DNA from: a virus
Taxonomy: Duplodnaviria; Caudoviricetes
Reading direction: 5' to 3' (one strand)
Virus record (IMG/VR): IMGVR_UViG_3300027996_003878
Length of the DNA: 64,000 bases
The notes under the pieces were generated by a model, which saw only the letters and a list, made by a program, of their open reading frames with translations, had not been told where the DNA came from and searched no databases. Position numbers and translations under genes: made by a program. Positions 39,715 to 53,729 of the stretch are shown piece after piece (the first letter of the stretch is position 1; each line of letters starts with the position of its first letter).

Positions 39715-41562
39715 TTAGCTAATTTCGACAGTTGCCTTAACAGCGAGCATAACGTCGTAGTTACCATCGCCATCCGCAGCGCTTGTCATACAAACACCAA
39801 GCTCAGCAACATACTCGCCAGCAGCACTCGGCGCTGTTGTTGTTGCATTACCAGCGTTAACGAGTCCGCCGTCCATATAGACAAGGTCACCAGCTGAAGG
39901 AGCGGCTGTAAAGGCCATCGGAGCAACACCGCTAACAATAGCCTCGCCAGATGCGTCAGATGTCTTGCAGACACCGCCAAAGACGGAGCTTGAAGCGCCT
40001 GAATTATCAGCAGCAGCAAGCGTCTTATTAGCAGAGTAATAACCAAGCTCACCAACACTAAGTGCTGACGTGTCAATTCCAGGAGCAACAACCTGAGCTA
40101 CAGACTCAACTGCGCTACCCATATCGGTCCAAGAACCGTTGATGTAGCCCAACATTTGGCTTGTGCCCGTATCATAAATGATCATACCATTTGTAGGCGC
40201 TGCGATTGATGCATTTGTGGTCTGTGTGACCTGCGGGGCCTTGTCGGGCTGTTGGTTCAAGATAAGAGCGTCACCTGCATGCTGGAAATCAGCAATATCG
40301 CCACCTGAGTTGATCATCAAGATAGAGTAACCATCGCGAACAACAGTAAGTCCAGCTGAAATTTGACCACTAAAGTAGTTAACACCAGAGCCAGACTGAG
40401 TCATGCTGGGGTTTGTGCCTGAAACGTCAAATGTGTAGCCGAGGAAGCTTGTTGAGTTAATTGCAGCCAAAACACCACCATCAACATAGAGGCCAGAGCC
40501 GCTTGCTTGAGCGTAGGTGCTTGAGTAGAAGTTGCCAGTAACAGTCGTATCGCCGGCAAGTGTGTTAGCACCAAGAGCGCTCTGAGTGATACCGCCAGTA
40601 GCGTTATCAAAAACGATTGTAGCGCCCGTAGCGTCGGTGAATGTATAATCGCCGCCTTGGTGGGTGCTAGCGCCAGTGACATCAAGACCGCCATCAGCAT
40701 CAAGATTACCAGCTAAGGTCACCTGAGCAGCTGTTGACTGTGTGATTGCGCCAGTGGCTTGAGCGATTGTAAAAGCGCCGCCTGTAGCGTCAGTCATTGT
40801 GAAATCAGCGCCTGAGACATCAAGACCGCCATCAGCATCAAGATTACCGCCAAGCGTGACTTGGGCTGTACCTGTCTGCGTCATCGTGGCATCTGCCTCT
40901 GTGATTCTAAAGACACTTCCATCAGTAGCCGTGAACAAGAAGTCACCACCAGTGATGTCAACACCGTCTTGCGCGTCAACGTTACCAGAAAGTGTGACCT
41001 GCGCGCCACCTGTTTGTGTAAGGGCGCCAGCCATTGTTGTTGCGCCGGTTACATCAAGACCACCATCGGCATCAAGATTGCCAGAAAGTGTGACCTGAGC
41101 GCCACCAATCTGATCAACTTGACCAGTTAAGGTTGTAGCGCCAGTGACATCAAGACCTTGATTAGCATCAAGGTTACCGTCGAAGTCTGCTTGACCTGAA
41201 CCGAAGTTCCACGTCGGGTTGCCCGTAGCAGTAACGTTACCAGCAGCATAATCTGTGGTAGCGTTGATTGTCAAAGTATCAGCAGCTGCATCACCAAGGG
41301 TGATATTGCCTTGAAAATCTGCATCACTTTCAAAAGTGCTGTTACCAATAACAGTCTCTGTACCATCAATTCTAAGGTCACCCTTGATTGTGGTAAGAAC
41401 ACCGACAGAGCCGATGTCAATTGAAGTTGCCGTTGAGGCACCAAGTAAAAGTGAACCAGCCTGATCTGTATCAAGACCAGCAGCCTGTTGTACTTCGAGT
41501 ACTGAACCACTCGGGAGCTGTTGAATTCTACCCGAAATGGATAATAAAGGTAAATTAGCCAT
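39715..41562 (-). CDS. Virion fibre-like repeat protein
   Basis: Six GN(L/V)DAxxG(L/V)D(V/I)xG repeats; G/A/T/D-rich; strong AGGAGA RBS; C-terminal domain similar to that of 41949..43595. Confidence 0.7.
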   Translation of the reverse strand: MANLPLLSISGRIQQLPSGSVLEVQQAAGLDTDQAGSLLLGASTATSIDIGSVGVLTTIKGDLRIDGTETVIGNSTFESDADFQGNITLGDAAADTLTINATTDYAAGNVTATGNPTWNFGSGQADFDGNLDANQGLDVTGATTLTGQVDQIGGAQVTLSGNLDADGGLDVTGATTMAGALTQTGGAQVTLSGNVDAQDGVDITGGDFLFTATDGSVFRITEADATMTQTGTAQVTLGGNLDADGGLDVSGADFTMTDATGGAFTIAQATGAITQSTAAQVTLAGNLDADGGLDVTGASTHQGGDYTFTDATGATIVFDNATGGITQSALGANTLAGDTTVTGNFYSSTYAQASGSGLYVDGGVLAAINSTSFLGYTFDVSGTNPSMTQSGSGVNYFSGQISAGLTVVRDGYSILMINSGGDIADFQHAGDALILNQQPDKAPQVTQTTNASIAAPTNGMIIYDTGTSQMLGYINGSWTDMGSAVESVAQVVAPGIDTSALSVGELGYYSANKTLAAADNSGASSSVFGGVCKTSDASGEAIVSGVAPMAFTAAPSAGDLVYMDGGLVNAGNATTTAPSAAGEYVAELGVCMTSAADGDGNYDVMLAVKATVEIS

Positions 41563-41948: not shown

Positions 41949-43595
41949 TCATGATAATATCACAAAATCTTGATCAACCATCACAATTAATGTTGTATTG
42001 TCTTTCGCAACGCCTATCTTTTGCACTACCGAACCCGCGCTTGCAGGCGCTACATTTGTAATTTGCCCCGATATTTCCGACAAATAGTAAGCTTCACCCG
42101 TAATCAAACCGGGATAGTTTATCTCACCGTAAAACAAAACCTCTGCCGTGGTCGCTGTAGGTTTATTCAAGATTATTCCTATACTGGGATATTTAGTTGG
42201 ATTATTTGCACTAGCCGTACCAACTGAGTTACTTCCGTTAATATATACAGCATATCCATCCAAAACCAAACTTGTACAAGAAAATAAACCAGTTACCTTA
42301 TTTGAAGTTGTGGCTCCACTAGTACCTATAATAGAGGATCCGCTTCTAGTTAATAAATCTCCATCACTAAGAGAATCAATAGCTAAGCTTTGGCCGCCAG
42401 CTTCTGTTAAAGCAACAACGCTTGGATTTGGATATAACCCAGATAAATCGCCTCCGGCAGGGCCATTATTTATTAAACACCTATTAGATGGATCAACTAA
42501 AGCGCCAATATATTGACCACCATATATTTCAGCAGATCCAGTGCCAATGTCTAAACTCAAATTTCCTTGAATATGGCCATTTTCTAGAAAAAAATCAGCA
42601 TATCCATCAACAGTAACATTTCCGCCAATTTGACCTGTCTGCAAATAAAAAATAGACGTATCATTTACAGTCAGATCTCCATTTATAGAAACATTACTGA
42701 GATCTCCTAAACCTACATCTCCATTAAACTCAAGGGATGTCAGCTTAGATATCCCACCGTTTAGGCCATAATTCCCTCCTGCCGGATACCCTTCAGGATC
42801 AGTTGTATCAAATGTAAAGTCGAATAAAGGAGACGTCACTGTAGTAGATGCCAGCCATGCTCCAGAAACATTAAACATAGTAATACCAGAGCCTCCCAGC
42901 CAACATCCGGTATTAAAAGTTATGTAGTTTGTGTTCCTAGCATACATTGCTAAAGCAGCTCCTATTGTTCTAAAATTACAATTAACAAAATTAATTTCTA
43001 CACCGCCAAAATTAGTAGTCACAGGCGATGCGTCCCCCTTAACTCCAATTAATTGGACTGCGGGAGAGGTTCCATCTTGAGGTCGAAAGTCTAAATTTCT
43101 AAATTGATTATCTGATGGTCCGGCAGAGCCGCTATTAACAAGGCCTGAATAAGGCCCGCCGGAAAGATAAGTGTTTAATGATACTGAGGTGGCGTTGCTT
43201 AATACCAAGCAGGAGCCTGTCGTGGCTTTTATCTGACAGAGACCTTGCCCTCCACGCCCAATTAAACCAACACCACTTTTGCTAATAATTAAATTTTCGT
43301 CATATATCCCTGGTGCAATAATAACTGCGGCAGGGTTTGAAGTGCTAGGTGATAAACCGCTTTCAATATCATCAATAGCATACTGAATCGTTTTATATGG
43401 GCTTGAGGAAGTTCCATAGCCAACACCATCAGTGCCGCTGAGATCAACATATCTTGACCTTTCCGGCAATGGCAATGGTGGTAAATCGCTTGGAGGCCTG
43501 GCCTCCCAGCGATTTGTTGCAGCGTCATACGCAACCACGTAGCCATCAGCAGCTCCAAATGGAGGTGCTAATTGTTTAAGTGGGAGTTTTGGCAT
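41949..43595 (-). CDS. Virion fibre or beta-helix protein
   Basis: PYKTIQYAI and beta-helix-like body, GGDLSGLYPNPSV hinge, C-terminal GLITGEAYYLS...APASAG...QKIGVA domain. Confidence 0.65.
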   Translation of the reverse strand: MPKLPLKQLAPPFGAADGYVVAYDAATNRWEARPPSDLPPLPLPERSRYVDLSGTDGVGYGTSSSPYKTIQYAIDDIESGLSPSTSNPAAVIIAPGIYDENLIISKSGVGLIGRGGQGLCQIKATTGSCLVLSNATSVSLNTYLSGGPYSGLVNSGSAGPSDNQFRNLDFRPQDGTSPAVQLIGVKGDASPVTTNFGGVEINFVNCNFRTIGAALAMYARNTNYITFNTGCWLGGSGITMFNVSGAWLASTTVTSPLFDFTFDTTDPEGYPAGGNYGLNGGISKLTSLEFNGDVGLGDLSNVSINGDLTVNDTSIFYLQTGQIGGNVTVDGYADFFLENGHIQGNLSLDIGTGSAEIYGGQYIGALVDPSNRCLINNGPAGGDLSGLYPNPSVVALTEAGGQSLAIDSLSDGDLLTRSGSSIIGTSGATTSNKVTGLFSCTSLVLDGYAVYINGSNSVGTASANNPTKYPSIGIILNKPTATTAEVLFYGEINYPGLITGEAYYLSEISGQITNVAPASAGSVVQKIGVAKDNTTLIVMVDQDFVILS

Positions 43596-45103: not shown

Positions 45104-45388
45104 TTAGATCCTTTTAAAAAAGACGGCTTTCTTTAAAAAAACAAACTTATCAGAGACAAAAGCTGATCCTGATATTAATCCACACCCAATCTTATTAACT
45201 ACCTTGTTATCTTTATTTACCAAGACAAAGGCGAGATTGCCAATGGATGTCATTTTGACAATATCAAAATAACTTAAAGCTATCTTTAAGTTATAAAGCG
45301 ACACATCATCGCCATAACACTCTTCAACCAAATTATCAAAGTCGCCAACTTTAATTCCATTATCGAGAATAAAACCATTACTAATCAT
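45104..45388 (-). CDS. Hypothetical protein
   Basis: 94-aa ORF overlapping the map stop. Confidence 0.55.
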   Translation of the reverse strand: MISNGFILDNGIKVGDFDNLVEECYGDDVSLYNLKIALSYFDIVKMTSIGNLAFVLVNKDNKVVNKIGCGLISGSAFVSDKFVFLKKAVFFKRI

Positions 45389-46181
45389 AAGTAATATCCT
45401 CCCATTTAGTCATTACTTCAGTGTAAGTGTCATGAACAAATATTGTATGCTCAAAATGACAAGAGATATCCTTAGTTACAATCGTCCAACCATCGTCCAA
45501 AACTTTAGTCTTATCACTTTTTAAAGATAGCATTGGTTCAATTGCTATTGTTAATCCCTTTTGAATCCTAATACCCTCTTTTGCTTTCGCTTTGTTATAA
45601 ACAAAAGGATGAGCGTGAGGTGTATTAAGCTCCAAACCATGGCCGCCATAATTAGTAATTAAATGATATGGATAACCTCTTACAGTACGATAAATTGTCT
45701 GGCCTATTATTCCTAGCTGCTTACCAACTGCAATCGAATCAATTGCTTTATCTAAGGATTTTTTACATAATTCGAGCATATAAACATGATCTTTTTTTAT
45801 AGGCTCACCGTAGATTGCAGTGATTGCTGCATCCGCTATTACGCCGTCATAAGTTGCCCCTAGATCTATCTTGACAACGTCGCCCTTTTGCAACACATAA
45901 TCACGAGGAATGCCGTGAACCAGTTCATTATTGACTGATGCGCATATAGAGCCTGGAAACCCTTTATAATCTTTAAAGGTGGCAGTGCAATCAAAAGACT
46001 CTATGCATTCAATTGCAAAATTTTCAATATCTAATAAATTCAAATTTGGCGTTGCGCTCTCTATGAGATGCTTTGACTTGGCTAGAATATTGCCTACACA
46101 TTTCCCAGCAATCCGCTGCTTTTGCAGCCAATCGTCATCTTTTAAAGAAATAAATTCATTATTAATAAATAAATCACTCAT
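45381..46181 (-). CDS. map: Methionine aminopeptidase type I
   Basis: ICASVN...HGIP, KIDLG, IADAA, GGHG, AIEPM, HFEHT. Confidence 0.95.
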   Translation of the reverse strand: MSDLFINNEFISLKDDDWLQKQRIAGKCVGNILAKSKHLIESATPNLNLLDIENFAIECIESFDCTATFKDYKGFPGSICASVNNELVHGIPRDYVLQKGDVVKIDLGATYDGVIADAAITAIYGEPIKKDHVYMLELCKKSLDKAIDSIAVGKQLGIIGQTIYRTVRGYPYHLITNYGGHGLELNTPHAHPFVYNKAKAKEGIRIQKGLTIAIEPMLSLKSDKTKVLDDGWTIVTKDISCHFEHTIFVHDTYTEVMTKWEDITYD

Positions 46182-46397: not shown

Positions 46398-46790
46398 TTA
46401 ATCCATCATTCGGCCTAGATTTACAAACGGCACCACCTTTGGCGGTGGAGGCTCAGATTTAGCTTTTGTCGGATTACTCTTGTTCTTAGCGGCATGACTA
46501 TTGGAAGCATCATCTTGGCCGTATTTTATAATCGGCTCACCGCCACCATTCGACTCTTTTTCTTTTTTTATAATTTCCCCTGATGACTCATCTATTGTAT
46601 CATCTAGAGAAAGGCCCTTCTTAATATAGAATTTTAAGATCACATTATTAAATTCTAAATCTGCCTTTTGACTTTCTAATATATATTTTTCCGCTAATAG
46701 CGCTGAAAAAGACTTTTTAATCTTTGAGTCTTTTATTAATTGCAACTCTTTTTCAGATAGAAATTCTTTTTTTGATTCATCACTACTCAT
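46398..46790 (-). CDS. Hypothetical protein
   Basis: 130-aa ORF. Confidence 0.6.
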   Translation of the reverse strand: MSSDESKKEFLSEKELQLIKDSKIKKSFSALLAEKYILESQKADLEFNNVILKFYIKKGLSLDDTIDESSGEIIKKEKESNGGGEPIIKYGQDDASNSHAAKNKSNPTKAKSEPPPPKVVPFVNLGRMMD

Positions 46791-47175
46791 TATTTAAACT
46801 TTCTTGGATTTCACCATCAAATATAGTCCAATAACTTAAGTCTATTTGTATATAAAGTTTTTTAGACTTATCGACTTCAGATTTATCTTCTTTCAAAATG
46901 AAAAATGGCTTTTTCCACTCTGCAATTATTTCTTTTTCAAAGTATATTTTTACTCCGCCATCTCCGTCGTCTTTTACATGAACGTCATATTTTCTTAGCG
47001 CTTTCCTAAGTTTAATTTTGTGGTCTGTGGTAAAATACTCCACGCCCTCTTCTTCTGGAAAGCATTCTTCCAGAGGAATTTCTAGAACTTCTAAGACGCC
47101 CCGAATAAAATTATATTTTTCGTCAGCTTCTACCCGCCTTGCATCTTCTCTGTTTACATAAATTGAGAATTCCAC
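46783..47175 (-). CDS. Hypothetical protein
   Basis: 130-aa ORF. Confidence 0.65.
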   Translation of the reverse strand: MEFSIYVNREDARRVEADEKYNFIRGVLEVLEIPLEECFPEEEGVEYFTTDHKIKLRKALRKYDVHVKDDGDGGVKIYFEKEIIAEWKKPFFILKEDKSEVDKSKKLYIQIDLSYWTIFDGEIQESLNNE

Positions 47176-47190
47176 TTTTATTTAAATCAA

Positions 47191-50100
47191 TCAACCGCAT
47201 CCAGAAAAGCCACAATCTAAACATCGAAGGCAGCCATCTTCACGGGCCATCTGGTGCGAGCCACACGAGGGGCAGACATCCGCCTTCTTCTGGCTCTTTT
47301 TTCTTACATGCTTTTTTAACAGTCTAGCTAGGACATTATTTATATCAACGATATTACCGTCTTTAGACAACTGCTCAATTAAATATTCAATAGGCACCCC
47401 ATGACGTAACGATGTAGATATCATTCTCGTAGTCCATGAAAGCTCTTCATTGTCAGCTGACTCAATAATATTTTCTACAAGCACATTATTGGTAACATCT
47501 AATAGATCGTAATGGCCCCGCTTTGCTCTGACCACTTTGCCCTCTGTATATTTTGAAGGTATTTTCCAATTATCATGAAGCCCCATAAAGATCTCATAAA
47601 GCTCATTGTAAAGCATTCCAACAAGAACAACCCACTTAACACCCTTCACCGTGGCGCGATGAATTGCGCACATTAACTCTTTCGGCCTTTTAGGTGATTC
47701 GGACGGGATAATTGCTGTAGGACGGCCATCCTTACTTTTATCTTTATTCTGACTCTTATAAGTCTCATCACTTACAAGAACACCCGTTCTACAGCCATCT
47801 CTGTATACTGTAACCCCCTTACAGCCAGACTCATAACCAGTCATATACACATCGCTAACAACTTCTTTTGTTGTATTGTTAGGTAGGTTAGTTGTATTAC
47901 TTATAGCGTGACTTACCCATCTTTGAGCGGCAGCCTGGCCTTTTACCTTGCTCACCCAATTAATATCATTTGAGGTCGCTTTAAAGTAAGGTGAATCTTC
48001 AATTTCGGTTTTTCCAGTAATTTCCATCCATTGTTTAAATCTATGATGATACACCGTGTATTCCTTCCATTTATCCCCCATAGAATCAACAAAATCAACT
48101 GAGGCGTCAATATCACTAGGATTAATTTTTTTACGTCTTGTATATTTTACTAGGAATGCCGGCTCGATGCCTGATGTTGTTTGAGTCAAAATAGATACAG
48201 ACCCACATGGCGCTGTTGTTGTTAATGCGATATTTCTACGGCCATACTTTTTAGCTAAGCTTCTTATCTCTGGATCTGCATTCCAAATTCTTTTGAGGTA
48301 ATTACAATCAGATTTATCTTCTAATTTGTAATCAAATATTTCAAATGGGCCTCGCTCTTTGGCCAAAATACAGCTGGACTTGTGCGCAGCCAAAGCCATT
48401 GTTTTATATATTTTTTCAATAACTTTTATTGATTTATCAGATCCATAAGTATGACCTAATGCTGCCACCGCATCTCCAATAGCGGTAACGCCTAAGCCGG
48501 TTCTTCGGCCAGCAGAGCAAACTCTTAGAAATTCATTCCAAAGCTTTAATTCAATTTCTTTTACTTCATTCGGTTCAGGATCCAGGGTGATTTTTTCAAT
48601 GATCTTTTCAATGATTTCTATCTCTAAATCAACAAGATCATCCATCAATCGCTGAGCCTTCATTGCATGCTCATAAAACAGATCAAAATCAAATGATGAT
48701 TTATTTTCGAATGGCTTTTTTACATATGATAAAACGTTTAATAATAACAAGCGACAACTATCTGTACCCATCGGGATCTCGCCGCATCTGCGAGTTGTAA
48801 CTGTATTTACAATAATAGATCTGGTTCTAGATTCTTTAATACAATAAACAGTATCTGGGGCAATGCTTTTTCTGGATACTAGTTTGAGAAAAGTTTTTTT
48901 TGTGTAATTCCTTTTAACATTAGAGAGAAGTTGTTTTAACTTTTGATCTTTTTGTGGGTGATTGAATTTAATTAGCTTTCCGAAAGCCTTCCACCCACCA
49001 CAAGTAGTTATAAGTTCATATTGATCTTTTACTTTATAATTAATATTTTTTATATTAGCAGTATGACTCTTTCGTCTTAAATAAATTGAAGATGAAATGC
49101 CATTAGCATGCAGTAGTAGCTGAACATCTCTCAAAAGCCCCCTGTTTGACTGAGCAAGCCTAATAGAGGCATTAGAACGAGATCCCGACTGCACACTGCC
49201 GTCAGCGTAATAAAGTCCAGAAAGATAAAACAATCCCTCTTTTTTTCTAGCATTATTTAATACAAATTCTGGAACGGATAACTTTGTTTCTTTAGAAAAA
49301 TTATACTTTTGCTCAAGAAGATGTTTCAAAAAAGTAGAGCTTATTCTTGTCTTATTACGCCTTTCATCTGTAGAGATATAACAAGAAGATAACTTGCGCT
49401 TATTCCATCCATTCGTCAATTGAACTGAGTTATTTTTAAACAAATTATTGGCAATATCATTTATCAAATGAGTCATTTCATAGCGATGATCGCCCCATAA
49501 GTCTATATGAACTTTATTATCAGAAAATGTCCCATCACCAGCAATAAGGCCCATTAAAAATGAACACATTTCATCATTCGTCATATCTGAACTCAAGCCA
49601 TCTAAAATATCATGCTTTGGAGGTGTGGGCACAGATATTAGAATTTCATGACTTGGTGATAAATCTTTAGCTTCTACCATTCCATCAGTCGTTGCTATAT
49701 GATGATCTGGAGTACACTTTAGATTTTGACCATTACTAAGCTCTAATTCCAACAGCTCAGCAGATTTCTGAGTTATAAACGCACCACCCTCATACTCGCT
49801 ACAAGTCGTTCCTTTTTGATTAAAATCCATCTTCCAATTTGTAGGATCTTCATTTTTAGGATCACCAACATACGAAATACGATTGTCTACAAGAGGAATG
49901 CCTTGACCTTTAATCTGAGAATCTTTAAATTTAACATAACCTGATTCGTCCAAAAATCTCTCATCTCCATGGAAGCAAGGATTAGTTGCACGCTCAGCAA
50001 ATGCAGGATCTTTGTGACGATAAAGATGAGGTATCGAGTTGTTTTTTATATTATCTTCAAATAGAAGGCCAGGCTCCGCCATACCATGCGCTGCATCTAC

Positions 50101-50886
50101 GATCTTACTCCAAAGCTCTTTTGCACTCACCCAACGCTCGACTTGGGGAGATTTTTTATCATCTATAGGCCATCTTAACTGAACATCGTTTTCACTTTTA
50201 ACGGCATTCATAAATTCATCAGATAAAAGAATAGAGATGTTGGCTCCAGTTACTTTTTTCAAATCCTTCTTTATATCAATAAATTTTTCAATTTCAGGGT
50301 GATGACAGCTAATCACTAAAATTAGTGCCCCGCGTCTGCCTCCTTGAGCAACCTCTCGACAGGTATTGGAAAATCTTTCCATAAAAATTCCAATACCATC
50401 AGTTGTTCGAGCTGCATTGTTTGTAGGCACTCCCTTGGGTCGAATATTCGATATATTAACCCCCACGCCAGCACGACGCTTCATAAGTTGGGCTAACTCC
50501 TGATCTGTTTTCAGGATGCCGCCATAAGAATCATAAGTAGACTCTATAACAAAACAATTTCCACTCGATTGCAGCTGAAAGGGATTGCCGACCGAACTCA
50601 TCGGACTCCCTTGCGGCACAATATATCTAAAATTTTCAAGTAAAGAAAATATCTCATCTTCACTCATAGGGTTTTCGTATTTACCCTCTACACGCGCAAA
50701 CTCTTTAGCCAAACGTTTGTGCATATCAAAAGGAGTCAACTCATGATATGATCCTTGATTATCACGAAGAGCATATTTATCAACAAAAACTTTTGCAGCA
50801 AGCTCATCTCCTTTAAAATAATCTAAAGATGCCTCGTACACTTCATTATAAGAAAAACTTTTAACCATTTTTTTATTACTTTTCAA
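47191..50886 (-). CDS. nrdJ: Class II (adenosylcobalamin-dependent) ribonucleotide reductase with intein
   Basis: SGNCFV, GGRRGA, TNP|CGE split by an insertion, TTAPCGS, TTSGIEP, GCKGVTVYRDG, C-terminal Zn ribbon; no beta subunit nearby. Confidence 0.93.
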   Translation of the reverse strand: MKSNKKMVKSFSYNEVYEASLDYFKGDELAAKVFVDKYALRDNQGSYHELTPFDMHKRLAKEFARVEGKYENPMSEDEIFSLLENFRYIVPQGSPMSSVGNPFQLQSSGNCFVIESTYDSYGGILKTDQELAQLMKRRAGVGVNISNIRPKGVPTNNAARTTDGIGIFMERFSNTCREVAQGGRRGALILVISCHHPEIEKFIDIKKDLKKVTGANISILLSDEFMNAVKSENDVQLRWPIDDKKSPQVERWVSAKELWSKIVDAAHGMAEPGLLFEDNIKNNSIPHLYRHKDPAFAERATNPCFHGDERFLDESGYVKFKDSQIKGQGIPLVDNRISYVGDPKNEDPTNWKMDFNQKGTTCSEYEGGAFITQKSAELLELELSNGQNLKCTPDHHIATTDGMVEAKDLSPSHEILISVPTPPKHDILDGLSSDMTNDEMCSFLMGLIAGDGTFSDNKVHIDLWGDHRYEMTHLINDIANNLFKNNSVQLTNGWNKRKLSSCYISTDERRNKTRISSTFLKHLLEQKYNFSKETKLSVPEFVLNNARKKEGLFYLSGLYYADGSVQSGSRSNASIRLAQSNRGLLRDVQLLLHANGISSSIYLRRKSHTANIKNINYKVKDQYELITTCGGWKAFGKLIKFNHPQKDQKLKQLLSNVKRNYTKKTFLKLVSRKSIAPDTVYCIKESRTRSIIVNTVTTRRCGEIPMGTDSCRLLLLNVLSYVKKPFENKSSFDFDLFYEHAMKAQRLMDDLVDLEIEIIEKIIEKITLDPEPNEVKEIELKLWNEFLRVCSAGRRTGLGVTAIGDAVAALGHTYGSDKSIKVIEKIYKTMALAAHKSSCILAKERGPFEIFDYKLEDKSDCNYLKRIWNADPEIRSLAKKYGRRNIALTTTAPCGSVSILTQTTSGIEPAFLVKYTRRKKINPSDIDASVDFVDSMGDKWKEYTVYHHRFKQWMEITGKTEIEDSPYFKATSNDINWVSKVKGQAAAQRWVSHAISNTTNLPNNTTKEVVSDVYMTGYESGCKGVTVYRDGCRTGVLVSDETYKSQNKDKSKDGRPTAIIPSESPKRPKELMCAIHRATVKGVKWVVLVGMLYNELYEIFMGLHDNWKIPSKYTEGKVVRAKRGHYDLLDVTNNVLVENIIESADNEELSWTTRMISTSLRHGVPIEYLIEQLSKDGNIVDINNVLARLLKKHVRKKSQKKADVCPSCGSHQMAREDGCLRCLDCGFSGCG
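48787..49977 (-). mobile_element. Intein (397 aa) with LAGLIDADG homing endonuclease and non-canonical Arg C-terminus
   Basis: Starts CFHGDE after TNP; block B CTPDH; LMGLIAGDG and LSGLYYADG; block F TVYCI; ends IIVNTVTTRR before CGEIP. Confidence 0.9.
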
Positions 50887-52277: not shown

Positions 52278-53729
52278 TTAACTCTCATGCCAACCTATTT
52301 TTTTCAAATAATCAGAAATGTCTATTGCACCATTGTCACCAGCCGGGCCATTTTCAAAGTTTTCAGGCCGGTACGGCTCTTCCATTTCTGATATGGAGGC
52401 ATTTTTAAAATTCTTTTTTAATACATGCCGCCCCAATTCTCCGTCTCGATTTTTAATAATATGATAAGTCAAATCTGAATATCTATACTCGTTCTTTCGA
52501 GTTTCTATTTGAATGCCTATATTTGCATGGTGCATTATCAATGAGGAGCGGCCAATTCTGTGTAGGCCAATCAAATCCGATGAGTCTTTTTTGCCCTTGT
52601 TTTGAGGTCGATTCAATTGAACTGCTGTCAATGTAGCTATGTTGTGAACCCTTCCAAACTCATGCACCTTGCCTGCGATATAACCTAACTTAAGCCAATC
52701 GTCTCCAGAGAACTCACGATCTTCTAAAAGGCCTAAATAATCAACAACTACAAAGTCAGGCTGAAAGCTATCACAAGCCTCCTGATACCTACGCTCAATC
52801 TCCTCTACAGAAGCGCCTCGGGGCACATCAATAATCTGAAACTCATAGGGATATCTATCAATAAATCTTACAGCCTGAGAAAGAGAGTCTGCCTGAAGCT
52901 GATTCAACTTACAATCTCTTAGTCCGTAAATTGGAACATCCGCCAGTCTAGACATCGTTCTTCTTGCGCAGGCCTCATACGGCATTTCTAATGAAAAGTA
53001 TAAACAATTATATCCCTTTCCAAAATTTTCCGAATCAGTATATATTGTGTTCTGCTGCATCCACATTTGAATTGCCATGTTATTGAGAAACATACTTTTA
53101 CCGCCCCCGGTTTCAGCGGCTACTATAACCATTTCTCCAGGGCAAATTCCATTTTTTATATAGTCTAAAAAAGAATAGCCGGTCAGGATTCCTCTGCCCT
53201 TTTCCTCCTCACTTGCTTTTTGAAAATATTCAAGTTTAAACCGAGGCATATAAGCCTTCAAGGTCTCTTGCTTGAATACCTTCTTCTTCCCTTTCCTAAT
53301 CTCTTTTAAGTTGACAATTTCTGACTGTAAACTTTTAATAATTTTATCGTGATTTAAAGAAGCATCACTAAGATTTGTATTAGATAAAGAATTTCTTAGA
53401 TTGTTTATTACTCTATTGCTATATTTGTTCTTTAACTGATCTAAGTAAAATCCAAAATCAGAATCACTATAATCAACAGAATCTAAAACACTCCAGACAT
53501 TCAAAAAGTTATCAACTATATCTTGTCGCTCTTTAAATCTTGATTCTAGAACCTTGCGAGAGGGAACTTCCTTATAAGCTTTTGCAAAGCTTAATATTGA
53601 CTTTGCGAACAAATAATATTCTTTAGAGAACAAGTTCTCATTGTAAGCGTCTAAGAAGTCAAGCGCGCGACGTTTATTTGTGGTAAGCGCTTTTAAAACT
53701 TGTAACTCACATTGGTCTGACTCAAGCAA
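52278..53729 (-). CDS. DnaB-like replicative helicase
   Basis: AAETGGGKS, FSLEM, VVVDYLGL, QLNR, IIKNRDG. Confidence 0.92.
   Translation of the reverse strand: MLESDQCELQVLKALTTNKRRALDFLDAYNENLFSKEYYLFAKSILSFAKAYKEVPSRKVLESRFKERQDIVDNFLNVWSVLDSVDYSDSDFGFYLDQLKNKYSNRVINNLRNSLSNTNLSDASLNHDKIIKSLQSEIVNLKEIRKGKKKVFKQETLKAYMPRFKLEYFQKASEEEKGRGILTGYSFLDYIKNGICPGEMVIVAAETGGGKSMFLNNMAIQMWMQQNTIYTDSENFGKGYNCLYFSLEMPYEACARRTMSRLADVPIYGLRDCKLNQLQADSLSQAVRFIDRYPYEFQIIDVPRGASVEEIERRYQEACDSFQPDFVVVDYLGLLEDREFSGDDWLKLGYIAGKVHEFGRVHNIATLTAVQLNRPQNKGKKDSSDLIGLHRIGRSSLIMHHANIGIQIETRKNEYRYSDLTYHIIKNRDGELGRHVLKKNFKNASISEMEEPYRPENFENGPAGDNGAIDISDYLKKIGWHES

What the first reader, a model, noticed from the sequence alone, without database searches (positions are those of the whole stretch)
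48787..49977. RNR intein ending in Arg-Arg at the catalytic cysteine: possible new splicing chemistry
Seen: the 397-aa insert splits TNP|CGE and starts with Cys. It has block B TxxH, two LAGLIDADG motifs and block F VYC (Cys at the usual Asp position), but ends ...IIVNTVTTRR|CGEIP. The codons CGC AGA each differ by two bases from His-Asn codons, so a single sequencing error cannot explain this. Established: inteins release themselves by cyclising a C-terminal Asn (rare variants use Gln or Asp); Arg cannot do this. The +1 Cys is the RNR thiyl-radical residue, so failure to splice should inactivate the enzyme, yet both exteins and the endonuclease look intact. Inference: an alternative branch-resolution mechanism, a host- or protease-assisted step, or a conditional switch on dNTP supply.
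Basis: partly seen in the sequence, partly recalled or inferred. Interest (0 to 1): 0.85.

Follow-up and report, generated by a model that had tools for sequence, protein, structure and literature searches.

The report
Mobile RNR intein ending in arginine
A marine phage's ribonucleotide reductase gene carries a self-excising insert (intein) that ends in Arg-Arg instead of the usual His-Asn, and it belongs to a large, conserved, mobile family that all ends in arginine, so these inteins very probably cut themselves out by a chemistry that has not been described.

Summary
Window 48787-49977 (minus strand) is a 397-aa LAGLIDADG intein in an RNR large subunit, between TNP and the thiyl-radical Cys. 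It starts with Cys and ends ...TTRR|CGEIP.

It is neither an error nor a dead one-off:
- A 99%-identical intein-less allele (P0122/L017) lacks exactly these 1191 nt.
- Contigs from other seawater metagenomes carry the same codons.
- 106 of 352 aligned family members end in Arg. All 106 also have Cys at F:4, Arg/Lys at F:13 (His or Asn in Asn/Gln-ended relatives) and Cys at +1.
- Both Arg positions use CGN and AGR codons across 27-67% GC.
- Mini-inteins without an endonuclease keep RR.
- In three Arg-intein genes, dN/dS is 0.07-0.13 for exteins, splicing domain and endonuclease.

The intein therefore has to come out of a working enzyme without an Asn, Gln or Asp. My preferred mechanism is inferred, not shown: the terminal Arg N-epsilon cyclises onto its own carbonyl. 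This forms a six-membered delta-lactam, isosteric with the Gln glutarimide.

I found no published precedent in the searchable literature. This scan had already noted the same Arg-ended clade on other DNA (e1-4926892).

One first-reader slip: CGC is one base, not two, from His CAC.

The parts
47191..50886 (-). RNR large-subunit gene (class II-like, TNPCGE motif, C-terminal Cys-rich tail) including the intein. The likely true start is the ATG at 50868.
   Evidence: ORF list and translation. Pfam PF02867 2e-76, PF00317, TSCPD. P0122 starts at the ATG.
49978..50868 (-). N-extein (residues 7-303), ending ...AERATNP.
   Evidence: 295/298 residues identical to the intein-less P0122. 99% nt identity to L017.
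48787..49977 (-). 397-aa intein: HINT splicing domain plus LAGLIDADG homing endonuclease.
   Evidence: Absent as an exact 1191-nt block from L017. AF2 pLDDT 91.4, pTM 0.93. Top Foldseek matches are the TliVMA, PI-PfuI, PhoVMA and PI-SceI inteins.
49936..49977 (-). Block A with Cys1 (CFHGDERFLDESGY).
   Evidence: Cys1 is invariant in all Arg-enders aligned over that column (94/94).
49660..49731 (-). Block B (…KCTPDHHIAT…GMVEA…): Thr B:7, Asp B:9, His B:10, His B:11.
   Evidence: T89 and H92 are invariant. D91, H93 and M100 co-vary with the terminal Arg.
48895..49602 (-). LAGLIDADG homing-endonuclease domain (approximate limits). Motifs at 49525-49560 and 49192-49227, both with the acidic residue.
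   Evidence: Pfam LAGLIDADG_3 3.3e-15. Motif coordinates. The domain is missing in 160-162-aa mini relatives.
48805..48855 (-). Block F (DTVYCIKESRTRSIIVN): Cys at F:4 (48841-48843) and Arg at F:13 (48820-48822).
   Evidence: In 106/106 Arg-enders F:4 is Cys and F:13 is Arg (101) or Lys (5).
48787..48804 (-). Block G (TVTTRR). The penultimate and terminal Arg codons CGC AGA lie at 48787-48792.
   Evidence: The spacing is the same 21 residues as VYD…GIVTGN|C in the SPbeta RNR intein. The last beta-hairpin is predicted as in canonical inteins.
48784..48786 (-). Cys+1 (TGC). This is the Cys of the NPCGE motif, taken from published site descriptions to be the RNR thiyl-radical cysteine.
   Evidence: +1 is Cys in 106/106 Arg-enders. 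The site is described as N-terminal to the thiyl-radical residue in PMC2677866.
47194..48786 (-). C-extein (residues 701-1231).
   Evidence: About 524 of 531 residues identical to P0122. The spliced product keeps 208/210 columns that are at least 97% conserved in intein-less homologues.

Best explanation
This is a functional, recently mobile intein of a large clade inserted just before the thiyl-radical Cys of RNR. In this clade the C-terminal Asn/Gln has been replaced by an invariant Arg.

Steps 1, 2 and 4 of class-1 splicing are presumably unchanged: N-S shift at Cys1 helped by Thr B:7 and His B:10, transfer to Cys+1, and the final S-N shift. Step 3, release of the intein from Cys+1, must use a chemistry other than Asn/Gln/Asp cyclisation.

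My preferred route is inferred, about 0.35 on its own. The N-epsilon of the terminal Arg attacks its own backbone carbonyl and forms a six-membered delta-lactam. This has the same ring size and nitrogen position as the glutarimide formed by Gln-ended inteins. The co-evolved basic residues at F:13 and G:6 and Asp B:9 would lower the guanidinium pKa or stabilise the oxyanion.

Shown here: the anatomy, clade-wide conservation, purifying selection and mobility. Inferred: that it splices, and how.
For: **Exact boundaries and recent mobility**
- The intein-less allele P0122/L017 is 99% identical in nucleotides and lacks precisely the 1191 nt.
- The sister genome instead has an intein in DnaB.

**The sequence is real**
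- Contigs of other seawater runs carry the same RR codons.

**Clade**
- 78/83 allelic inteins end RR.
- In 352 aligned domains the terminal residue is R 106, N 72, Q 45, D 3 and nothing else among the 226 domains aligned over that column.
- All 106 Arg-enders have F:4 Cys, F:13 R/K and Cys+1. All 94 aligned over the N-terminal half also have Cys1 and His B:10, and 93 of them Thr B:7. Only 2/120 N/Q/D-enders have R/K at F:13.

**Selection**
- R-1 is encoded by AGA, AGG, CGG or CGA. R-2 is encoded by CGT, CGC, CGA, CGG or AGA. This holds across 27-67% GC.
- dN/dS is 0.075-0.13 in exteins, 0.07-0.10 in the N-splicing domain and 0.085-0.11 in the endonuclease, at dS 0.5-1.9.
- Mini-inteins of 160-162 aa without an endonuclease keep every splicing-block feature, including RR.

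**Evolution**
- P0075 (ends RQ, F:13 His) branches at the base of the Arg clade. P0008 and P0012 (end RN, F:13 His) are nested inside it, so F:13 and G:7 changed together more than once.
- Q to R and H to R are single-base changes (genetic code).
- Further positions (B:9 Asp, B:11 His, Met100) co-vary with the terminal Arg.

**Fold**
- The AF2 model is confident. The nearest solved structures are endonuclease-bearing inteins.

**Established knowledge**
- F:13 and G:6 assist step 3, and Gln, Asp or Glu can replace Asn by cyclising (PMC4031507).
- Delta-lactam formation of activated Arg is a known side reaction of peptide synthesis (my own knowledge).
Against: - There is no experimental evidence that any Arg-ended intein splices. 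No enzyme is known to cleave a peptide bond by Arg cyclisation, and a guanidinium (pKa above 12) is a poor nucleophile unless perturbed.
- F:4 Cys is also invariant in Arg-enders, so a thiol-based route is not excluded.
- Coordinates of the AF2 model were not available, so no distances could be measured.
- Phage RNRs are accessory genes, so a single inactive copy could persist for a while.
- In this window, 6 of 10 amino-acid differences from the intein-less sister are derived on the intein-bearing lineage, including Pro to Leu at a Pro conserved in 67/68 homologues.
- The window's intein is the only one in the first 78-member RR set with Asp at position 10, where Thr is 96%.
- The covariation counts are not phylogenetically independent; there are about 2-3 independent events.
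Confidence: 0.7

Rival explanations
1. The intein splices, but step 3 is done by a thiol. The invariant Cys at F:4 (or the freed Cys1) attacks the Arg-Cys bond, or a thioester made there by an N-S shift at Cys+1. This gives a transient thiolactone or cyclic intein. The terminal Arg and the F:13 and G:6 basic residues would only position or polarise the scissile bond.
For: F:4 is Cys in 106/106 Arg-enders but in only 52/120 Asn/Gln/Asp-enders. In class 3 inteins the F:4 Cys is a proven nucleophile (PMC2807308, listed). Both junctions are X-Cys bonds.
Against: F:4 Cys is ancestral to the lineage and co-exists with ordinary Asn/Gln endings: the NrdA-type relatives end KN|T and P0097 ends GN. It therefore did not arise with the Arg. 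If the side chain at G:7 had no chemical role, more than R/N/Q/D would be expected at that position, yet nothing else is seen in 226 domains, while the penultimate position varies freely (R, A, V, S, Q).
Confidence: 0.18
2. The intein does not splice. It is a selfish endonuclease-bearing insert that has inactivated a dispensable phage RNR, and the gene is on its way to decay.
For: Arg cannot perform the textbook step 3 (PMC4031507). Phage RNRs are accessory. There is a slight excess of derived substitutions on the window lineage.
Against: - Exteins of Arg-intein genes are under strong purifying selection (dN/dS 0.075-0.13 at near-saturated dS).
- The window's extein keeps 208/210 conserved columns.
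- More than 100 intact ORFs of about 1000-1700 aa exist in AT-rich genomes.
- Mini-inteins that lost the endonuclease still conserve the splicing blocks and RR.
- RR is kept through synonymous codon changes.
Confidence: 0.07
3. A host or phage protease that cuts after dibasic Arg-Arg releases Cys+1. Cys+1 then ligates to the Cys1 thioester, as in native chemical ligation.
For: RR|C resembles a dibasic processing site. The penultimate Arg is 95% conserved.
Against: - The penultimate residue can be A, V, S or Q.
- The element is mobile. It occurs in phage contigs of 27-67% GC and in a cellular-looking MAG contig, with no shared neighbour gene.
- The co-varying residues are inside the intein's own active site.
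Confidence: 0.03
4. The boundary or the sequence is wrong. The true intein ends at the Asn of IIVN (followed by Thr), or RR is an assembly error.
For: IIVN|T looks superficially like a VxN|T junction. This Asn is 92% conserved, with D, S and Q as variants.
Against: - The intein-less allele reads ATNPCGEIP with no TVTTRR remnant.
- The residue after that Asn is G, T, N, S, A or C in relatives, so it is not a conserved nucleophile.
- The Asn aligns with the 'NG' turn of block F in the SPbeta intein, 6 residues before its terminal Asn.
- Independent contigs carry the same letters.
Confidence: 0.01

Closest known systems
Bacillus phage SPbeta (SPBc2) bnrdE intein (Bsu-SPbeta RIR1)
   Same: It is the closest match among cultured-phage records (24.7% identity over the whole intein). 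It is a LAGLIDADG intein inserted directly before the thiyl-radical Cys of RNR (SNL|C…|CSE). It shares the DNR motif and has the identical 21-residue spacing from block F to the end.
   Different: SPbeta has Asp at F:4, His at F:13 and ends Gly-Asn. The window has Cys, Arg and Arg-Arg. The host enzyme is class Ib NrdE rather than the NPCGE-type RNR.
Gln-ended inteins (Chilo iridescent virus RNR intein, Pyrococcus abyssi Pol II intein)
   Same: They are natural inteins lacking the terminal Asn that still splice. CIV is also an RNR intein (PMC4031507). Gln cyclises through N-epsilon to a six-membered ring, the geometry I propose for Arg. Gln-ended allelic inteins are common at this very site. 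P0075 (ends RQ) sits at the base of the Arg clade.
   Different: Gln carries an amide nitrogen and is a documented cyclising residue. Arg carries a guanidinium, and no splicing has been reported for it.
Class 3 inteins (mycobacteriophage Bethlehem DnaB intein)
   Same: Cys at block F position 4, and a phage association (PMC2807308).
   Different: Class 3 inteins lack an N-terminal nucleophile, have Trp at B:12 and still end in Asn. The window has Cys1, Ile at B:12 and a terminal Arg.
Allelic Asn/Gln-ended relatives in metagenomes (P0097 ending GN, P0075 ending RQ, P0008/P0012 ending RN) and NrdA-type relatives ending KN|T
   Same: Homologous over the whole length (25-46% identity). They have the same or the adjacent insertion site, and F:4 Cys.
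   Different: They keep a cyclising terminal residue, and F:13 is His or Glu rather than Arg/Lys.
Solved endonuclease-bearing inteins (TliVMA 7qsu, PI-PfuI 1dq3, PI-SceI)
   Same: The same two-domain fold by Foldseek (E 2e-17 to 1e-14, probability 1.00). By my own recollection, PI-PfuI is itself an RNR intein.
   Different: Only 10-17% sequence identity. All have canonical C-terminal Asn chemistry.

Membership tests
Intein (HINT splicing domain, class 1) | In-frame insert in a conserved motif of a host protein, absent from an otherwise identical allele | tested here: met
   P0122/L017 is 99% identical in nucleotides and lacks exactly 1191 nt. It reads ATNPCGEIP.
Intein (HINT splicing domain, class 1) | N-terminal nucleophile (Cys/Ser1) and block B Thr-x-x-His | tested here: met
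   Cys1 and TPDH are present. They are invariant in the 78-member RR set of the first search.
Intein (HINT splicing domain, class 1) | Cys/Ser/Thr at +1 of the C-extein | tested here: met
   Cys+1 of CGEIP. Present in 106/106 Arg-enders.
Intein (HINT splicing domain, class 1) | C-terminal Asn (or Gln/Asp/Glu) that cyclises in step 3 | tested here: not met
   The terminal residue is Arg (AGA), and the penultimate is Arg rather than His. This is conserved across the clade.
Intein (HINT splicing domain, class 1) | HINT fold | tested here: met
   AF2 pLDDT 91.4, pTM 0.93. The top Foldseek matches are inteins. Pfam Intein_splicing scores 32.0 bits, below its 35.8 cut-off.
Intein (HINT splicing domain, class 1) | Demonstrated protein splicing (ligated exteins plus free intein) | not testable with these tools
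   Only indirect evidence: purifying selection on exteins and the splicing domain, and mini-inteins that keep RR.
Class 3 intein | No N-terminal nucleophile, plus the Trp B:12 / Cys F:4 / Thr G:5 (WCT) signature | tested here: not met
   Cys1 is present and B:12 is Ile. Only F:4 Cys and G:5 Thr fit.
LAGLIDADG homing endonuclease | Two LAGLIDADG motifs with catalytic acidic residues, and evidence of mobility | tested here: met
   The motifs contain GDG and ADG. Pfam LAGLIDADG_3 scores 3.3e-15. There is a presence/absence polymorphism between 99%-identical genomes. Endonuclease dN/dS is about 0.09-0.11. Cleavage activity was not tested.
Ribonucleotide reductase large subunit (class II-like) | RNR ten-stranded barrel domain with the N-P-C-G-E active-site loop. 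B12 dependence defines class II. | tested here: inconclusive
   PF02867 scores 2e-76 and the NPCGE loop is restored on removing the insert. Cofactor class was not tested. Assignment to class II rests on the NPCGE motif (my own knowledge).
Bacterial intein-like (BIL) domains | HINT domains in variable, non-conserved proteins, lacking an endonuclease. Type B lacks block G and only cleaves. | tested here: not met
   This insert sits in the most conserved motif of an essential-type enzyme. It carries an endonuclease and aligns through block G with true inteins. The BIL description is from PMC4031507.

The most novel reading that the evidence does not exclude
Arg-ended RNR inteins form a fourth mechanistic class of protein splicing. 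The branched intermediate would be resolved by cyclisation of a C-terminal arginine to a delta-lactam, or by another Asn-independent reaction that needs the Arg. A remodelled active-site shell would support this: F:13 Arg/Lys, G:6 Arg, B:9 Asp and F:4 Cys.
Probability: 0.6. Interest if true: 0.9.

Novelty: new variant of a known kind. Interest (0 to 1): 0.8.

Why it matters
In the published accounts I could search, every mechanism of protein splicing resolves the branched intermediate by cyclising a terminal Asn, Gln, Asp or Glu.

A large natural clade under purifying selection, sitting on the catalytic cysteine of an essential-type enzyme and ending in Arg, would mean that peptide-bond cleavage by another route has evolved and is widespread in marine phages. 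That route might be arginine cyclisation or a thiol relay.

This would matter in three ways:
- It would add a new reaction to protein chemistry.
- It would explain how an intein lineage can cross from Gln to Arg by single-base steps.
- It would give protein engineers a C-terminal cleavage or ligation module with different pH, redox and sequence requirements.

The 160-162-aa mini-inteins of the clade are ready-made test objects.

Tried and rejected
**Literature**
- Six full-text searches found no Arg-ended intein. The terms covered intein with C-terminal arginine, class 4, lactam, atypical terminal residues and NrdJ phage. Two RNR-intein papers read for the site also mention none.
- Subscription journals are not covered.

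**Own genome**
- None is held, so I could not ask whether a second RNR exists in this phage.

**'Sole RNR in a cellular genome' argument**
- The Muiribacterium MAG has only this PF02867 hit but also an NrdD, so the argument fails.

**Extein-decay test across the clade**
- Using columns conserved in the window's close relatives was confounded by RNR subfamily divergence. I used it only for the window itself.

**dN/dS among the viral-contig loci**
- All pairs were either identical or below 60% identical. The test was therefore done on three closer genes fetched separately. DNA for P0063 could not be fetched.

**AF2 model**
- Coordinates are not exposed, so no distances between Arg397, Cys379 and the scissile bond could be measured.

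**Expression**
- No RNA holder is listed.

**Cultured phages**
- No record holds an Arg-ended relative. The best hits are SPbeta-type inteins at 23-29% identity.

**Co-conversion**
- Flank mismatches cluster near the junction (6 within 130 nt against about 1.6 expected). The window was chosen after the fact, so this is only suggestive.
Full report
**What is there**

The finding lies inside a 1231-codon ORF on the minus strand (window 47191-50886). Pfam finds the RNR barrel (PF02867, 2e-76), the RNR all-alpha domain, LAGLIDADG_3 (3.3e-15), a sub-threshold Intein_splicing hit and a TSCPD tail.

Protein residues 304-700 (window 48787-49977) are the insert:
- It begins with Cys (CFHGDERFL).
- Block B is TPDH.
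- The two LAGLIDADG motifs have their acidic residues.
- Block F reads VYC.
- It ends IIVNTVTTRR, followed by CGEIP.
- The last two codons are CGC AGA.

CGC is one base from His CAC, not two. AGA is two bases from Asn.

The neighbouring genes are a phage-type replication module: DnaB-like helicase, DnaC-like loader, another helicase and a sigma factor, among many ORFs of no known family. No whole genome is held. The stretch occurs in seawater, marine and estuary metagenome runs of 18 studies from 2016-2024.

**Boundaries and reality of the sequence**

A search with the C-extein alone found P0122 (828 aa), which is 98-99% identical on both sides and reads ...AERATNPCGEIPMG....

Its contig (L017) is 99% identical in nucleotides to the window on both flanks. 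It lacks exactly the 1191 nt, with the Cys codon shared between the two junctions. L017 in turn has a 337-aa intein in DnaB that the window lacks. These two near-identical phage genomes therefore differ by reciprocal intein presence and absence, which is the signature of recent homing or precise loss.

Mismatches between the two alleles lie at 7, 51 and 126 nt upstream and 6, 30 and 117 nt downstream of the insert. This is denser than in the rest of the gene (6 against about 1.6 expected). It is suggestive of co-conversion, but the comparison is post hoc.

Contigs of three other seawater runs cross the C-terminal junction with no difference in the RR codons.

The alternative reading 'the intein ends at IIVN|T' fails for three reasons:
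- The intein-less allele has no TVTTRR.
- The residue after that Asn is G, T, N, S, A or C in relatives.
- In the annotated SPbeta RNR intein, the corresponding Asn is the 'NG' turn of block F, six residues before the true terminal Asn. VYDTTQEDYHSLIFNGIVTGN|C and VYCIKESRTRSIIVNTVTTRR|C have the same 21-residue length.

The AF2 model (pLDDT 91.4, pTM 0.93) predicts the usual last beta-hairpin, so Arg397 occupies position G:7. The nearest solved structures are endonuclease-bearing inteins: TliVMA, PI-PfuI, PhoVMA and PI-SceI.

**It is a clade, not an accident**

A search with the intein region gave 155 hits. From these I extracted 83 allelic inteins at NP|CGE. Their endings are RR 78, RN 2, RQ 1, VR 1 and GN 1.

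Within the RR set (33-59% identity to the window) the invariant residues are Cys1, Gly13, Asp31, Arg33, Trp48, Thr69, Gly83, Thr B:7, His B:10, Thr96, Gly99, Met100, Cys F:4, Arg396, Arg397 and Cys+1.

A profile search of 1.84 billion representatives gave 584 hits below 1e-30. In 352 aligned domains the terminal residue is R 106, N 72, Q 45 and D 3, and nothing else (126 domains were not aligned over that column).

| Feature | 106 Arg-enders | 120 Asn/Gln/Asp-enders |
|---|---|---|
| F:4 | Cys 106 | Asp 65, Cys 52, Asn 3 |
| F:13 | Arg 101, Lys 5 | His 55, Asn 44; only 2 are R/K |
| +1 | Cys 106 | Cys (119 of 120 aligned) |
| Penultimate (G:6) | Arg 101, Ala 2, Val 1, Ser 1, Gln 1 | various |

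(All.)

Further positions co-vary with the terminal Arg. Asp at B:9, His at B:11 and Met100 in Arg-enders correspond to N/Y, K/E/R and R/K/F in the Asn/Gln-ended F:4-Cys relatives. B:11 and F:13 are residues known to assist step 3 in studied inteins (PMC4031507). The shell around the C-terminal scissile bond has thus been remodelled in concert, which is not what decay looks like.

**Selection**

- Across loci of 27-67% GC, R-1 is encoded by AGA, AGG, CGG or CGA. R-2 is encoded by CGT, CGC, CGA, CGG or AGA.
- Five mini-inteins of 160-162 aa have lost the endonuclease, and four have a degenerate one. All keep the splicing blocks and RR.
- For three Arg-intein genes with DNA (L036-L038), Nei-Gojobori dN/dS is 0.075-0.13 in the exteins, 0.07-0.10 in the N-terminal splicing domain and 0.085-0.11 in the endonuclease, at dS 0.5-1.9.

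The host enzyme has therefore stayed under strong constraint while carrying an Arg-ended intein for a long time. That is hard to reconcile with a non-splicing insert at the tip of the catalytic loop.

The window's own spliced product keeps 208 of 210 columns that are at least 97% conserved in intein-less homologues.

Two caveats apply to this particular copy:
- 6 of 10 amino-acid differences from P0122 are derived on the window lineage, including Pro to Leu at a Pro conserved in 67/68 homologues.
- Its intein alone has Asp at position 10, where Thr is 96%.

**Evolution**

A tree was rooted on SPbeta-type and NrdA-type relatives:
- P0097 (ends GN) is basal.
- P0075 (ends RQ, F:13 His) sits at the base of the Arg clade.
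- P0008 and P0012 (end RN, F:13 His) are nested deep inside it on a long branch.

So G:7 and F:13 switched together in both directions. Gln to Arg (CAR to CGR) and His to Arg (CAY to CGY) are single-base steps.

The NrdA-type relatives (inserted SNLC|…|TEI, ending KN|T) and P0097 also have F:4 Cys. That Cys therefore predates the Arg.

At the same NP|CGE site, close extein relatives carry many other allelic inteins ending in Asn or Gln. The site is described as the most frequent intein site in RNRs (PMC2677866).

**Distribution**

- No cultured-phage record has an Arg-ended relative. The best hits are SPbeta-type inteins at 23-29% identity.
- Eleven IMG/VR viral contigs carry Arg-ended relatives of this intein.
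- So do three MAG contigs.
- One MAG contig, from Ca. Muiribacterium halophilum, has a cellular-looking context: M42 peptidase, glycosyltransferase, LRR proteins and an IS605 transposase. That bin has no other PF02867 gene, but it does have NrdD.
- No neighbour gene is shared among the loci. This argues against a dedicated trans-acting factor.

**Mechanism**

What is shown: an intact, mobile, selected intein whose G:7 is Arg.

What follows from established intein chemistry (PMC4031507): Cys1, Thr B:7, His B:10 and Cys+1 suffice for steps 1, 2 and 4. Step 3 needs a replacement for Asn/Gln/Asp cyclisation.

My preferred inference is cyclisation of the terminal Arg through N-epsilon to a six-membered delta-lactam. 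The reasons are:
- The ring size and nitrogen position equal those of the Gln glutarimide.
- Gln-enders are the sister state and one base away.
- The position admits only R, N, Q or D in 226 sequences, while its neighbour varies.
- Three basic residues and an Asp have co-evolved around it, which could lower the guanidinium pKa.
- Delta-lactam formation of activated Arg is known from peptide synthesis (my own knowledge).

The main rival is a thiol route through the invariant F:4 Cys, or a second N-S shift at Cys+1. A protease-assisted step, a dead intein and a mis-set boundary are unlikely for the reasons given above. None of this can be settled without biochemistry.

**Novelty**

Six full-text searches, one review and two RNR-intein papers gave no Arg-ended intein. 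The 2014 review lists only Asn, Gln, Asp and Glu.

This scan had already noted the same clade on other DNA (e1-4926892) and read this same stretch twice (e1-5407960). It also noted Gly-ended clades at the same site, which I did not test.

I class the finding as a new variant of a known kind. It is an intein in every respect but the defining step-3 residue.

Noticed in passing
L017:1640-2650 (sister genome); corresponding point in the window about 53096, inside DnaB 52278-53729 (-): The 99%-identical sister contig has a 337-aa intein in the DnaB P-loop (GGGK|AQPLDTL…MKCIQV…THN|SMF). It starts with Ala, has F:4 Cys and ends His-Asn with +1 Ser, so it looks like a class 3 intein. The window's DnaB lacks it, giving a reciprocal intein polymorphism with the RNR.
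   Followed up: partly
window 48757 and 48781: A contig of seawater run X10 carries the intein but has, at these two C-extein positions, the letters of the intein-less allele L017. Flank alleles are therefore not strictly linked to intein presence, which points to variable co-conversion tracts or recombination.
   Followed up: no
L033-L035 (Ca. Muiribacterium halophilum MAG contig, 45.7 kb); RNR at L033:9282-13070 (-): An Arg-ended intein (…KSIIVSGLSTRR|CGE) sits in the only PF02867 gene of this 3.9-Mb bin. Its contig also carries an M42 peptidase, a glycosyltransferase, an Eco57I-type methylase, a reverse transcriptase, LRR proteins and an IS605 OrfB. This looks cellular rather than phage, so the clade may not be phage-only. 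The bin also has an NrdD.
   Followed up: partly
window 49660-49731 (block B): Asp at B:9, His at B:11 and Met at intein position 100 are specific to Arg-enders. Asn/Gln-ended relatives with F:4 Cys have N/Y, K/E/R and R/K/F there. This looks like a charge rearrangement around the C-terminal active site.
   Followed up: partly
window 50868-50886: The ORF opens at a TTG six codons upstream of an ATG. The intein-less homologue P0122 starts at the ATG (MVKSFSY…), which is probably the real start.
   Followed up: no
window 46398-47175 (-): Two overlapping 130-aa ORFs lie directly downstream of the RNR gene, with no PHROG match. Several other large ORFs nearby (39715-41562, 41949-43595, 45381-46181) are also unmatched.
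   Followed up: no
proteins P0129-P0219 (close extein relatives): The same NP|CGE site hosts many other allelic intein lineages. Some are HNH-type inserts of about 455-485 aa ending FQ, KQ, RQ, AQ, LQ, FN or KN. Others are LAGLIDADG types ending SN, GN or HN. Some begin with Ser.
   Followed up: no
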